Below, in pieces: positions 6,001 to 12,000 of a DNA stretch of 64,000 nt. Position 1 is the stretch's first letter. Every line of letters begins with the position of its first letter. The DNA is from Perna viridis. Its lineage: Eukaryota. Position numbers: made by a program. Where the stretch lies: assembly GCA_037379345.1 (NCBI GenBank), contig CM074516.1, forward strand, positions 45,731,626-45,795,625, read 5' to 3'.

Positions 6001-9000
6001 TGGACTGAAAGAAACTAACAATTGATGAAATAATTTTTATGACATTGCCTTTGACATCTTTTTGAAGTTGAAGACTAACTTCTTGTTATAAATTTTGCCT
6101 TTAAAATGCTAAACATGAACCAAGTGAGTAATTCAGGCTTCTGGGTGCCTCTAGTGTTTCCATTAGGGTCAGCTACTGTATGTGGGTTTTTGGTTAGTGT
6201 CTTTTAGTTTGTAATTTTTATGTATATTTCAGTTAAGGTACTGTTAAAGATCAGCTTTTTCCATTGAATTGTATATTGTCAGTACATTTGTACACATGTA
6301 CAATAAATGATTTATATATTTATATATATCTGTTAGTAGTGTGAAGCTAAGCATCAGTATTATGTCACCTTATTTTCTTGCTGTAATTACAGCGGTAGAA
6401 GATATTTTACAACAATCGGGAACATCTGTTGACATGGTTCTATCACTGACCCAGCTTCTTAATGAGAGTAAAAGGTACTTAATGTTGTCATTTTTGAAGT
6501 TCTAATGGCTTTGAATAATAAACAGAATTGAGAAATTTTTTTTGTTTTTGTTTTTTATTGTTTTTAGTATATTTAAATTCTTATCTTATTTATATGGCAC
6601 ATTGTAGTTTAAAACCAAAAAGATATGGACATTATAATTTGAAAAAAATCTCTTGTGACACGAATAACTGCTAAACTATTTTTGTATTGTATCCTGAAAT
6701 ATCATTTTATGAGATTACTTTCTACTCTGAATTTGCAGTTATGGCTAACCATATACCTACACGAAGAAGTATCAGAATTTCTTGTAATGTAAAATCAGTT
6801 TATTTTTGTTTTGTGGCTCAGACTTTTTTGAACAGGTTTTTACGTGTGTTTAATGGTGTTGTATTTTTTCCACAGTGGCCAGATTAAAAAGGGGGAGGGC
6901 TGTGATCACACAAAGTACTTTAACCAGCACCATGTTTTTTTGTGCTTGTCCCAAGTCTGGAATTTCTGAGCTCTCTATGTCTTGTTATTTTTTCACTTTC
7001 AGTTAACTTTTTGGGGTTTGCTGCAGCCTGCCATGTTGTTTGAGGTTTCCTGGCCATTTATTGAAGACCCATGGGTGGCCTTGAGCTCTCATTTTTCATT
7101 CCTGTGGGGATATTATCTCTTCCACATATTCACCATAGTCATTCTTGTTATATTAATTAGGAATATTTTCCAGATATGAAGTCTCTAAAGAAGTTTTGGT
7201 CCATTCTTTGACAAAGTTTGATAGCAGTCCAGACCTTGGGAAACTGAAGACCACTCAACTAGAACTATTGTTACAGTCCAAACAAGCCGAGGCAGCCAAA
7301 CAGCTTGTAGAACAGAGTATCATTGGTCAATATAAGGAATTTGATGGATTTAAAATTAAATTGGCAGAGGACCAGTTTCCTCTATTAACTATACAAATTT
7401 AATATGTAATATAATTAGTAATAAAGATCATTGGTAAATAAAGTTTATAGTGTTTCAATAACTCACATTTTGAATTAATATGTTGTAAACATTATCATAC
7501 AAAGAAAATGAAAATAATATTCATTTACAGCTTTGAAACCAATATCACAATATTAAATGCATTTATACAAATGAAAGATGAAGTCCTTTAAGGTAGACTA
7601 CATGATATAAAACTCATATTAGATTATTGATGTCAAACACTAAGTTCTTTAATAAATGTCCATTACATTTTTAAACTGTTTTGATATTCAAATTTTAAAT
7701 GATGTGACTGTAACATAAAATTCAAAATATTAATTTTTTTACTTTTTCCAGATCACAACACTGGACAACCATTAGACAAAGATGTTCTTAAAAGATTTCA
7801 TGTTCTGTTATGGGAAAAGGCAGGAGAGGAATTTGAGGTATACATATGTACTTGAAAAGTGCAAAGATAGATGTACAGTTGTCTCCCCTGAAGTCATTAT
7901 GATGTTAAATCCAAACATAATTGAGAACTCTAGAAAGTCCAGTAACCCACTGTTAATATCATTATTCAGCAATCAAAATTAGATCATTTCTGCAAGAATG
8001 ATAATGGCACCACCAGGGGAATTGTCAATGGCTTCATCACTTTTATGTTCATATGTCTTTAGTATCTTCAGTCCTGCATTCTTCATTGCATCTAGTACAT
8101 CATACTTGGTCACAGTCATGTCTTTGAAGATTTCATTTCCCACAGGATAAATTGCCCCATTAAGTAATTCAGCAAATACAAGTTTTCCTCCTTGTCTCAA
8201 CAGTGATGTCATGTTTTTCATGGCCTTTTGGTATTCATCTAAAGTTTTACATGCTGCTTCTAAACATTGACATGTACTGATCACGTCCAGATCTTTATAT
8301 TCTGTTTCAGCCATGGGATTTGTATGGTGAACATCACATGGCAGTATTCTTTTTATTTTATTTCTTAAGTCTTCCTCTTTCTTTAACCAATCTGATCTGA
8401 AATCAAAGCTGTATATTTTCAGTTTATCAATTTTAGAAAGGAATGTAAGTGAAAACTATTTTGGATAAAGTAATTTGATGAATTTAGATGAATTAAGGTG
8501 ACAAATACACTATCAAGAGTTATAGGACTATCTATTACCAAAAAAAAAGTGAGGTACAGGCTTGTTATGTAGCGGTACTGTGAAAATGCTTTAATATGTG
8601 GATGCAAATTTTCGTAGATTAGGGAAGAAACACAAATTTGTTGATTCTTGAATTCATGGTTTTGAAGTTTTCAGTATACATATCTGTGACAATTTTCTTT
8701 TCGTTGGCAACCCAATATTGTGGTTTGACCTACCCACAAAAACCACGAACAATAATACTTCACAGTACTTTATTGCATCTGTTCAACATACTACACAATC
8801 CAGCTTGTGCTAGATTTTATGTGCTTGCCTACAAGAAGGCAATGCATACTCTGAAAACCTGTGCTTAGATGAGAAGTGGTAAGTACATGTGTGACGCTTC
8901 CAGTGATGTTCATCAACAAAGTTCATGTGCTGCTCTCTGACCATCTAGTTTGTATTTAATAAAGTCATGAGAGATTAAAATGATATAAAACTCAATTTAC

Positions 9001-12000
9001 TTACTCATTACCATCAAGTTTACTGAAGAATTTAAAGAAAGGTGTCCAGTCATGAGCCTCTGTGTCTTTCTGTAGCCACTTCTCCTGCATTTCTCTGTTA
9101 AGTTGGCAAACATCAGTCAAGATAATCTCCTCAAACTGTGCTACAGCTGGGATAATAGTATGAAGACTAGGTCCTGTACCTATATCTAATAGTCTATGAC
9201 CTTTAACTTCACCTGTTAAAATAGAAATCTTATATTAATTAAGATAATTTAACGACCTCAGAGATCGTTTTAATATTCCCTGAATTAGTTCTGTCTCATA
9301 ATAGTTGTATGGTAATGAATGGAAATCTCACTTGGTTCAACTGGTCAATTTTTTGATGTATGATTTTTCCTGATCTGTGTGGCATGTTCAATCTACTAAA
9401 ACAACTTATTGTATAATTTCTTGATCGGTGTCATCCTGGTTGGCCCACTTTTAATTACAGATATAATTAAACATAAGGGGTTAAGGGGTCACTTGATTAT
9501 TGTAAATTTCAATTTTAATCAGCAACTACAATCCATTGCTACATGATATTTGCCATGTACAATTTCAGTTAGAGATCTTATACTGTACTAATTGATTTCA
9601 AATCAATGTTGAGATTGTAAATAGTATGAAGTCTAAAAAAATGATATTTCTTGTAATGAATTTGAAGAGGAGAAATTCTGATTATTACATTACTTGGCAT
9701 GTCGTGTTTTGAAGTCCTGTCTCAGATACAGTTCACATCCTAACTACTATGAGAGTAGTTTTTGATACTTTTATCTAACTATCAAAATACTATCAACTTA
9801 ACAACTTACCAGATGAATATATTGTGTTTAATGTGTCCAAAAGAAAAATCAGATATTTTTGAAATTCAGGAAATGGATGTTGTTCAATTTGTTGATAAAA
9901 AGTTGACAAATATAATTTAGGGTTGAAATATGTCTGAAAGTCATATCCCTGACGAATCTGTTCTTCCATACTTTCTTCTGAAATTTACAAATAATAATCT
10001 GTAAGTTGTACCTGTAGAACTATACCAAAAGGATGTTTGGATGGTTTTACCCCAGACAGTAGGTGTGACACAAAAAGAAAAAGTATATGTAGGGTTCATT
10101 TCATAATAATTATTTTCTGCTTTAAGTCATGGGTTACTAGAAATTGTTGAAAAAAATATTTATGCTATGAAATGGTTAAAACCAGAGGAGTCCTAAAATC
10201 TGACAAAAATGACCGAACATGAGCAGCAATTATCCTTAGTGTTATGAATTCCATGTTTTTGAATTAAGCAGTATTTTATGTTAACTAATGAATCCAAGTT
10301 TGCAAGAGATTTTCCTCATATAGGATGTAAATGGTTATGTCCCCTTCCTACCGGAAATCCTTGAGGTGCCCCTGGCTTTTGTGTCGGTTATTGCTCAAAC
10401 AAAATCTTCTTGGGATGTACATACTTTTTTTGTTTTGTAAATTTGTGTTTTTATCCAACCTATGCATAAAATAAAGTGATAAATATGCTGTACAGAACAT
10501 AATAGTCCGTGAGTTTTTTTTCATTGAATGCATTCTATAATTGTATTTCTCTGGTAATTTTAGTAGAGTTTAACAATATTGATATAAGCCAGCTTTGTTT
10601 AATAAATTTTGCTTTAGAGTGATAAATAATACCACTGTACTAGTACAGATATAAGTGTTCTGTAGTTTGATAGAATTATGAACCAGTTTACAATGATTTC
10701 CTTGGATAAAAAAGTTATCCTTACCTCTGACCTCTGCCTGTATAGCTTTATAATACTTTATGTGAACTTGAAGTATACTGACTTATATGATCTTAAATTA
10801 TCGGTTTGTTGACCACTTAGGTATGTGGAATTTGTTTGTCTTGACCAAGTGACTTCACTTTACGATAATCAATATAAGTTAGTGGAATTACCCTTCAACT
10901 TGTAATGAATTTGCAAATGTATCAAGCTTTCCTGAAGAAATCAATGATAATTGTATAGAATGAAGAGAAAATGTCAATCACCATTTTGATTATGTAATCT
11001 GGCATGGGCTTGTGAAAACTAATAAATTTTTCAGGTGCATTTCTTTGAAATTACATCTTATTGTTTAAATAAAATGTATAAATTTATATTTTTCAGAGTA
11101 AAGACTACCAGTCCTCCCTTGATTGGTACAACTATTCCCTGAGTTTATATGAAGTTCAGTCTGGAGATAAAAACTTGGCCAAATTACATAGGAACAGAGC
11201 TAACTGTTACATTAATCTACAGATGAATGTCAAGGTTAGGTCATTGCTGTTTAAATTGATTTATTTAAACACTTCAAGACAAGGAGTTAGAGAAATTTTG
11301 GATAATTTTTAAAGTAGTTTTGATCTCCTTTAAAAAAAAAAAAAAACACACAAAGAAATTGACCTGTTCTCCCTACACGTATGAAATATTTACTATGTTT
11401 ATGTTGTCCTCTCAGGCTGATGATGTGCTACATGAAGCAGAGAAGTATGATCCAGAATCTGTACACACCCAGTTCACCATGTATAAACTAGCTTTGGCTC
11501 AGTCTGATCTAGAAAAAGGTTTGATTCTGAAATATCAAATACCTAAATCTGTTACATATTATATAACTTTAAACTGTCAGTTAAAATACATGTAGTTTAT
11601 AATGCGAGTTAATGAGATCAGATAATTTTGTTAACTTCATAAAAGGGCTAGTGACATCATATAAAGTCAACAAAAATAGAAAAAAAAATACACATGTTTA
11701 TATTTATGAAACCATGATACAACATTCACACAGATGGATTCAGAGATCTTAAAAGGAGTCCAGAGGAGTATCAGAAAAAAAATGGGGATTTCAGGCTACT
11801 ATTTGTTCATATGTGTTTAAATTTTGTCCAAAACAAAATACTTCAATAAAAAAGGGGGTTTTCTGGCCCCTGGATCCATTCATAGTGATTATGTTTATTT
11901 AGACAACAAAGGATTGTGGAGTCAGTCAACTGCTTAAAGAGAGATAACTCTGTTTGAAACAGAATTAATTGATGCTGTCAATCGTAATCTTATTGTTATC

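What the first reader, a model, noticed from the sequence alone, without database searches (positions are those of the whole stretch)
7838..11096. Intact N-methyltransferase gene nested antisense inside an intron of the meiotic gene TEX11
Seen: a complete 261-aa NNMT/INMT/PNMT-family CDS with its own two GT-AG introns fills most of a 3.26-kb TEX11 intron. It retains introns, so it is not a processed retrocopy. Known: vertebrate NNMT, INMT and PNMT are not TEX11-nested. Inference: a DNA-level duplicate or translocation settled in a germline-restricted host, which may allow mutually exclusive soma/germline expression or transcriptional interference.
Basis: partly seen in the sequence, partly recalled or inferred. 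Interest (0 to 1): 0.65.

Follow-up and report, generated by a model that had tools for sequence, protein, structure and literature searches.

The report
Methyltransferase gene nested in TEX11 intron
A bivalve genome carries an intact three-exon small-molecule methyltransferase gene on the opposite strand inside one intron of the meiosis gene TEX11, which is a real but ordinary example of a gene within a gene.

Summary
On the minus strand, three exons (9969-9810, 9212-9005, 8396-7979) with GTAAGT donors and CAG acceptors give 786 nt, that is 261 codons plus a stop. Searched exon by exon, they cover the NNMT/PNMT/TEMT profile in order. They are the only 3 of 2,974 ORF segments in the window that match a family profile.

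The host is a TEX11/ZIP4-like gene on the plus strand. Mytilus TEX11 residues 144-924 map collinearly to 1159-31873. The exons ending at 7837 and starting at 11097 encode adjacent residues in phase 0.

The gene is not a retrocopy, because three exons is the family's usual structure. Its origin, expression and any interplay with TEX11 could not be tested. The nearest relative, Mytilus "INMT-like", is 61% identical in exon 2 and 42% in exon 3. It lies on a different chromosome from TEX11 in 3 of 3 Mytilus species.

Opposite-strand nested genes are common in animals (PMC3192792). I rate this a new member of a known kind, of low interest. The joined protein was not searched or folded.

The parts
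9810..9969 (-). Methyltransferase exon 1 (coding part). ATG at 9969-9967; 53 codons plus 1 nt; N-terminal helices of the NNMT/PNMT/TEMT fold.
   Evidence: PF01234 positions 5-46, E 0.012. Own profile positions 1-53, E 4e-7. An acceptor-like TTTCAG lies 9 nt upstream of the ATG, so an unseen 5' non-coding exon is possible.
9213..9809 (-). Methyltransferase intron 1, 597 nt, GT-AG.
   Evidence: donor CTG|GTAAGT, acceptor TTTTAACAG|G.
9005..9212 (-). Methyltransferase exon 2, 208 nt. Holds the SAM-binding motif LLDIGTGPS and the acidic ILTD.
   Evidence: PF01234 positions 54-121, E 2.4e-16. Human INMT 2a14 residues 55-120, E 1.8e-15. 61% identical to Mytilus INMT-like residues 52-121.
8397..9004 (-). 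Methyltransferase intron 2, 608 nt, GT-AG.
   Evidence: donor TGA|GTAAGT, acceptor TTGATTTCAG|A.
7979..8396 (-). Methyltransferase exon 3 with stop TAA at 7981-7979. Holds LPCDV, CLEAAC and LLRQGGKLV and the C-terminal strand.
   Evidence: PF01234 positions 125-242, E 1.2e-29. Human INMT residues 124-251, E 2.5e-18. Own profile positions 122-248, E 2.2e-45.
7838..11096 (+). Host TEX11-like intron, 3,259 nt, GT-AG, phase 0.
   Evidence: No TEX11 HSP inside it. No part of it is repeated elsewhere in the window.
7752..7837 (+). TEX11-like exon upstream of the host intron (Mytilus residues 398-425).
   Evidence: Weak SPO22 match at profile positions 230-258, E 0.081.
11097..11234 (+). TEX11-like exon downstream of the host intron (Mytilus residues about 426-471).
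   Evidence: HSP 424-473, 70% identity.
1159..31876 (+). The part of the TEX11/ZIP4-like host gene seen in the window. It covers residues 144-924 of the Mytilus protein and the stop at 31874-31876. The 5' end lies outside the window.
   Evidence: One search gave 21 collinear HSPs with P0173, about 70% identity over 778 aligned residues (my sum of that table). SPO22 PF08631 scored 35.9 bits on the exon at 2671-2814. Stop codon seen.
7738..7743 (-). First poly(A)-signal-like hexamer (AGTAAA) downstream of the methyltransferase stop. It lies beyond the TEX11 exon 7752-7837. The next is ATTAAA at 7653-7648.
   Evidence: None of 12 hexamer variants occurs in the 141 nt between 7978 and 7838. However, 21% of all 141-nt windows on this strand also lack them, so this is only a lead.

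Best explanation
This is a bona fide, probably functional, protein-coding gene for a SAM-dependent small-molecule methyltransferase of the NNMT/PNMT/TEMT family. It has the family's usual three coding exons. It lies on the opposite strand inside one ordinary phase-0 intron of a bivalve TEX11/ZIP4 (meiotic ZMM) gene.

Shown: the gene model, the family membership, the conserved cofactor-binding motifs, the identity of the host, and that the interval is a true host intron.

Inferred: it is transcribed from its own promoter within the intron, it methylates an amine, pyridine or thioether substrate that cannot be named from sequence, and the nesting is an incidental by-product of gene relocation or of intron growth around it rather than a regulatory device.
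For: - The gene model is complete and in frame with consensus splice sites.
- The exon-wise matches are collinear and cover the profile from position 1 to 248 of 260, and these are the only such matches in the window.
- The best solved relatives are human INMT, then NNMT and PNMT.
- Residues that are conserved across homologues are kept: DIGxGP, the acidic residue after strand 2, NRE..KWL, DW.P, PCDV, CLEAAC and GG.L.
- No relative above about 44% identity to exon 3 appears among the best 150 of 674 hits in 1.84 billion representatives, apart from a copy of the same DNA. The gene is therefore not a fresh copy of anything sampled, yet it has no stop or frameshift, which argues for constraint.
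- Base composition matches the surroundings. Exon GC is 0.29-0.39, intron GC is 0.30-0.33, and GC3 is 0.29 against 0.35 for the TEX11 exons.
- The host is identified by the SPO22 domain and by 7 of 9 hits named TEX11-like. It maps collinearly, and the flanking exons encode adjacent residues.
- Literature reports 63% of nested human genes on the opposite strand, and says the functional significance of nesting has been questioned (PMC3192792, passages).
Against: - There is no transcript evidence of any kind. The only identical database entries (P0004 and P0154, 111 aa) start at an internal Met of exon 3, as expected from unspliced DNA. A 'longer' search with exon 3 found no full-length protein.
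- Exon 3 sits on a long branch (1.79 against a median of 0.94) with no supported sister. That would also fit relaxed constraint.
- The residue aligned with the aromatic Tyr of the N-terminal helix in most homologues is Phe here. I recall, but did not check, that this Tyr is catalytic in human NNMT.
- No promoter or poly(A) site could be located. No poly(A)-like hexamer lies between the stop codon and the TEX11 exon.
Confidence: 0.75

Rival explanations
1. It is a silent DNA-level duplicate: a copy dropped into the intron with its introns that is not expressed and is drifting towards a pseudogene.
For: - There is no expression evidence.
- Exon 3 is on a long terminal branch.
- Exon 1 is weakly conserved.
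- A Phe sits where most homologues have Tyr.
Against: - All 261 codons are open and both introns keep GTAAGT donors.
- All cofactor motifs are kept.
- The nearest sampled relative is only 42-61% identical. A copy that old without constraint should be broken.
- Paralogues in this same genome were not available, so a young copy of an unsampled parent is not excluded.
Confidence: 0.12
2. The nesting is functional. Transcription of the methyltransferase gene, perhaps running antisense through the TEX11 exon 7752-7837, and transcription of TEX11 interfere with each other, giving mutually exclusive somatic and germline expression.
For: - The orientation is convergent and antisense.
- None of 12 poly(A) hexamers lies in the 141 nt before the TEX11 exon. 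The first ones lie beyond it, at 7743 and 7653.
- Tex11 is testis-biased in one bivalve (PMC9449974, abstract).
- Interference between host and nested genes has been shown in human minigenes (PMC3192792, abstract and passages).
Against: - 21% of random 141-nt windows on this strand also lack all 12 hexamers, and 67% lack AATAAA and ATTAAA.
- The same paper cites a study of 109 human nested pairs that found no expression correlation in either direction.
- There are no expression data here.
- The closest Mytilus relative is not linked to TEX11 in 3 of 3 species, so there is no sign that the pairing is conserved.
Confidence: 0.1
3. It is an assembly chimera or contaminant: the methyltransferase segment does not really lie in this intron.
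For: None found. The window does contain one N run, but it is at 17590-17735, far from the locus.
Against: - The sequence from 7500 to 11500 is uninterrupted.
- Composition is uniform across the junctions.
- The introns are of the local AT-rich type.
Confidence: 0.03

Closest known systems
Vertebrate INMT / NNMT / PNMT (Pfam PF01234; solved structures 2a14, 2iip, 1hnn)
   Same: - It has the same fold family and the same cofactor motifs.
- The length is about the same (261 aa against 263 aa for human INMT).
- It has three coding exons (PMC11987180 passage).
   Different: - Identity to any of them is only about 30-40%.
- These three enzymes are reported to be vertebrate-only duplicates (PMC10244343, passage), so it is an orthologue of none and the substrate cannot be transferred.
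- From recall only, the human genes lie on 7p, 11q and 17q and TEX11 on Xq.
Mytilus 'indolethylamine N-methyltransferase-like' (XP_076085596.1 and cluster, P0005)
   Same: - It is the closest named relative.
- Its length is 260 aa.
- The tblastn pieces break at residues 121/122, exactly where the window's exon 2 ends and exon 3 starts.
   Different: - Identity is 61% in exon 2 and 42% in exon 3, and exon 1 is not detected by tblastn. TEX11 is about 70% identical between the same two genomes, so this is more likely a paralogue than the orthologue.
- It lies on a different chromosome-sized contig from TEX11 in M. galloprovincialis, M. californianus and M. edulis.
Opposite-strand nested (intronic) protein-coding genes of animals, for example 2mit in Drosophila timeless2
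   Same: The whole coding sequence lies within one host intron, on the opposite strand, with introns of its own (PMC3192792 passages; PMC3786989 abstract in the listing).
   Different: This particular pair, an NNMT-family gene in TEX11, was not found in print: 0 papers hold 'TEX11' and 'nested gene'. Whether the whole transcript stays inside the intron is unknown.

Membership tests
NNMT/PNMT/TEMT methyltransferases (PF01234) | Match to the family profile over its length, above the curated cut-off of 25 bits | tested here: met
   Tested exon by exon. Exon 2 scored 60.2 bits and exon 3 scored 103.7 bits. Exon 1 scored 15.2 bits, which is below the cut-off alone. The matches are collinear at profile positions 5-46, 54-121 and 125-242 of 261. 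An own profile gave E 4e-7 for exon 1. The joined protein was not scored.
NNMT/PNMT/TEMT methyltransferases (PF01234) | Class I SAM-binding motifs: glycine-rich DIGxGP loop, acidic residue after strand 2, and the PCDV and GGxL motifs | tested here: met
   LLDIGTGPS, ILTD, LPCDV, CLEAAC and LLRQGGKLV align with the consensus of 57 homologues and with 7 named or unnamed homologues.
NNMT/PNMT/TEMT methyltransferases (PF01234) | Three-exon gene structure shared by INMT, NNMT and PNMT | tested here: met
   There are three coding exons with GT-AG introns. Human INMT is described as having three exons like NNMT and PNMT (PMC11987180 passage). Identity of the intron positions with the vertebrate genes was not tested. 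A weak hint is that 19 of 54 short database hits start within a few residues of the exon-3 start.
NNMT/PNMT/TEMT methyltransferases (PF01234) | Methyltransferase activity on a defined small-molecule substrate | not testable with these tools
   This needs an enzyme assay. The residues lining the substrate pocket differ among the solved relatives.
INMT, NNMT or PNMT proper (orthology) | Falls inside one of the three vertebrate clades | tested here: not met
   In a tree of exon 3 with 57 homologues, no supported clade holds it and its end branch is 1.79. The literature places all three as vertebrate-specific (PMC10244343 passage).
TEX11 / ZIP4 / SPO22 (host gene) | SPO22 domain (PF08631) above the cut-off, and collinear full-length similarity to named TEX11 proteins | tested here: met
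   The exon at 2671-2814 scored 35.9 bits against a cut-off of 27.5, and two further exons match later profile positions weakly. Of 9 hits, 7 are named TEX11-like and 2 are unnamed. There are 21 collinear HSPs covering Mytilus residues 144-924.
TEX11 / ZIP4 / SPO22 (host gene) | Meiotic or germline function and expression | not testable with these tools
   The only evidence is by analogy: Hyriopsis cumingii Tex11 is highest in testis (PMC9449974 abstract).
Nested (intronic) gene | Whole coding sequence inside a single intron of the host | tested here: met
   The CDS at 9969-7979 lies inside the intron 7838-11096, whose flanking exons encode adjacent residues.
Nested (intronic) gene | Whole transcript (promoter, UTRs, poly(A) site) inside the intron, and independent expression | not testable with these tools
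   No transcript data were available. Hexamer scans suggest the 3' end may lie beyond the TEX11 exon, but this is weak.
Processed retrocopy | Intronless, with a poly(A) tract and flanking target-site duplications | tested here: not met
   The gene has two introns. There is no flanking direct repeat of 16 nt or more bracketing it.

The most novel reading that the evidence does not exclude
A divergent, lineage-restricted NNMT-family paralogue was relocated into an intron of the meiotic gene TEX11. Its transcript ends only beyond the neighbouring TEX11 coding exon. The two genes would then form a natural sense-antisense pair whose transcription is mutually exclusive between soma and germline, coupling a metabolic methyltransferase to control of a meiotic crossover factor.
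Probability: 0.07. Interest if true: 0.45.

Novelty: new member of a known kind. Interest (0 to 1): 0.17.

Why it matters
The main value is for annotation. This is an intact, apparently unannotated methyltransferase gene, and gene callers should keep it separate from TEX11.

It adds one more invertebrate member to a family whose vertebrate enzymes (NNMT, INMT, PNMT) are much studied and whose invertebrate substrates are unknown.

The nesting would matter only if it proved conserved across bivalves, or if the two transcripts were shown to interfere. Nothing here shows either.

Tried and rejected
- **Word-indexed protein searches.** 'Longer' searches with exon 3 and exon 2 gave no hit at E 0.001 or better. 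The tool itself calls this weak evidence. The full scan of representatives did find the family.
- **Exon-3 tree.** The tree of exon 3 with 57 of the 149 listed hits (those of 245-300 aa; 92 shorter or longer ones left out) did not place the gene.
- **Repeats around the gene.** I looked for traces of a mobile element that could have carried the gene in. There are only chance-size repeats of 26 nt or less inside the intron. Nothing in the intron recurs elsewhere in the window.
- **RNA genes.** There are no Rfam families and no tRNAs in the window.
- **Exon 1 against the PDB.** The top rows were chance transportin matches at E 0.15. INMT came in only at E 0.83.
- **Literature.**
  - 'TEX11' with 'nested gene': 0 papers.
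  - 'indolethylamine N-methyltransferase' with 'bivalve': 2 papers. The one I read in a passage only lists Inmt among differentially expressed abalone gonad genes.
  - 'nicotinamide N-methyltransferase' with 'mussel': 12 papers, 10 listed, none relevant by title (listing only).
- **Not done.**
- The joined 261-aa model was not searched, looked up or folded.
  - The orthologous TEX11 intron in other molluscs could not be examined.
  - Supplementary tables of the papers were closed. Those of PMC10244343 may hold the invertebrate members of this family.
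Full report
**What is there.** I read the minus strand of 7500-11500. It holds an ATG at 9969-9967 with an in-frame TAA 18 nt upstream, A at -3 and G at +4. Three coding stretches follow.
- Exon 1 is 9969-9810.
- Exon 2 is 9212-9005.
- Exon 3 is 8396-7979, ending in TAA.

Both introns (597 and 608 nt) start with GTAAGT and end with a pyrimidine/AT-rich tract plus CAG. The lengths 160+208+418 give 786 nt, which is 261 codons and a stop. The split codons read Gly and Glu, which fit the family consensus at those columns. The joined protein was not searched, looked up or folded.

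**Family of the nested gene.**
- All 3 of 3 exon peptides have PF01234 (NNMT/PNMT/TEMT) as their best Pfam family. The profile positions are 5-46, 54-121 and 125-242 of 261, with E 0.012, 2.4e-16 and 1.2e-29.
- Exon 1 alone is below the curated cut-off. It is also weak against the PDB (INMT at E 0.83, behind chance transportin rows).
- I therefore built a profile from the 57 of 149 listed database hits that are 245-300 aa long, and ran it over all 2,974 six-frame ORF segments of the window. Only the three exons matched, at E 4e-7, 1.4e-25 and 2.2e-45 and profile positions 1-53, 51-121 and 122-248 of 260. The next segment had E 3.1. So there is one complete copy and no second copy in the window.
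- The best solved relatives are human INMT (2a14), then NNMT and PNMT.
- The cofactor motifs are in place: LLDIGTGPS, ILTD, LPCDV, CLEAAC and LLRQGGKLV.
- One difference stands out. A Phe sits where most homologues have Tyr in the N-terminal helix. I recall, without having checked, that this Tyr is catalytic in human NNMT.

**Relatives.**
- A full scan of 1.84 billion representatives with exon 3 gave 674 hits at E 0.001 or better, 106 at 1e-10 or better, and 1 at 1e-30 or better.
- That single top hit is a 111-aa ORF identical to exon 3 from its internal Met. It is known only from two short unnamed contigs, and its two versions differ at 1 of 111 residues. This is what an ORF caller makes of unspliced DNA, so it is not evidence of a spliced transcript.
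- The best true relative is Mytilus "indolethylamine N-methyltransferase-like" (260 aa). It is 42% identical in exon 3 and 61% in exon 2, and exon 1 is not found by tblastn.
- TEX11 of the same two genomes is about 70% identical over 778 aligned residues (my sum of the table). The Mytilus protein is therefore more likely a paralogue than the orthologue.
- A tree of exon 3 with the 57 full-length homologues leaves the gene on a long branch (1.79 against a median of 0.94) with no supported sister.
- PNMT, NNMT and INMT proper are reported to be vertebrate-specific duplicates within a family spread across Metazoa (PMC10244343, passages). The bivalve gene should be called an NNMT-family methyltransferase of unknown substrate, not an INMT.

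**Host gene.**
- Plus-strand ORFs match the SPO22/ZIP4 domain. The exon at 2671-2814 scores 35.9 bits, above the 27.5 cut-off, and two further exons match later profile positions weakly.
- A search with that exon returned 9 proteins. Seven are named testis-expressed protein 11-like, from bivalves, hemichordates, amphioxus and a sea star. Two are unnamed.
- Mytilus galloprovincialis TEX11-like maps in 21 collinear pieces, with residues 144-924 falling on 1159-31873. A stop follows at 31874-31876. The 5' end of the gene is outside the window.
- The exon 7752-7837 (residues 398-425) ends GAG|GTATAC. The exon 11097-11234 (residues from 424) follows TTTTCAG|. Both are in phase 0. The interval 7838-11096 is therefore a true TEX11 intron with nothing of TEX11 missing from it.
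- It is the second longest of the TEX11 introns seen in the window, by the gaps between pieces. Without the 1,991-nt coding span it would be of ordinary size.

**How it got there, and whether the pairing is conserved.** I could not test this directly, because no mollusc genome collection was open.
- Indirectly, the Mytilus relative lies on contigs of 133.1, 142.4 and 126.3 Mb in M. galloprovincialis, M. californianus and M. edulis. TEX11 lies on contigs of 91.4, 42.6 and 84.8 Mb in the same species. The closest named relative is thus unlinked to TEX11 in 3 of 3 species.
- An unannotated orthologue inside the Mytilus intron is not excluded.
- No trace of a carrier element was found. There are only short chance-size repeats in the intron, and nothing in it recurs elsewhere in the window.
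- Base composition and GC3 are like those of the host.

**Expression and interplay.** Nothing could be measured.
- An acceptor-like TTTCAG lies 9 nt before the ATG, so there may be an upstream non-coding exon.
- None of 12 poly(A) hexamer variants lies in the 141 nt between the stop codon and the TEX11 exon. The first are AGTAAA at 7743 and ATTAAA at 7653, beyond that exon.
- This could mean that the 3' UTR runs antisense through a TEX11 coding exon. However, 21% of all 141-nt windows on this strand also lack the 12 hexamers, and 67% lack the two canonical ones. It is a lead and not a finding.
- Tex11 is reported as testis-biased in the freshwater mussel Hyriopsis cumingii (PMC9449974, abstract). 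That makes a germline-biased host plausible.

**Comparison with what is known.**
- Human INMT is described as a three-exon gene similar in structure to NNMT and PNMT (PMC11987180, passage). The introns here are the family's normal ones. They rule out a retrocopy but say nothing more.
- Nested genes are common. About 63% of nested human genes are on the opposite strand, and a study of 109 pairs found no expression correlation in either direction (PMC3192792, passages citing Yu 2005 and Assis 2008).
- The pair itself is not in print in the searched library. 'TEX11' with 'nested gene' gave 0 papers.

**Verdict.** This is a new member of a known kind, an ordinary opposite-strand nested gene, and I score interest at 0.17. 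The boldest reading not excluded is a sense-antisense pair coupling the methyltransferase to TEX11 expression, at about 7% probability.

Noticed in passing
window 29574-31000, minus strand: There is a remnant of a hAT-type DNA transposon in another TEX11 intron, between the exons at 29078-29149 and 31204-31305. The C-terminal dimerisation domain scores E 1.1e-14. The rest is spread over several frames with no Pfam match, so it looks broken.
   Followed up: partly
window 1276-1590: A 27-nt minisatellite of 11.7 copies begins at the 3' end of the TEX11 exon piece 1159-1308. Because the unit is 9 codons long, it keeps a 172-aa frame open. I did not check whether any of it is coding.
   Followed up: no
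window 26258-27613, 28404-28986, 49590-51131, 58875-59762, 62630-63367: The window holds large minisatellite arrays: 29 nt x 47, 43 nt x 13.6, 28 nt x 55, units of 78 and 208 nt, and units of 41 to 239 nt. The first two lie in TEX11 introns and the others lie downstream of the gene.
   Followed up: no
window 17590-17735: The only N run of the window lies in the TEX11 intron between the pieces at 15089-15199 and 17837-17926. Mytilus residues 584-595 have no matching piece there.
   Followed up: no
window 7738-7743 and 7648-7653, minus strand: The first poly(A)-like hexamers after the methyltransferase stop lie beyond the TEX11 exon 7752-7837. The 3' UTR may therefore overlap that exon in antisense. 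This is statistically weak.
   Followed up: partly
window 32000-64000: Downstream of the TEX11 stop, none of the 6 ORFs from this region that I scanned had a Pfam match at E 0.01 or better. These included an ORF pair at 42205-42623 on the minus strand. This half of the window was not otherwise studied.
   Followed up: no
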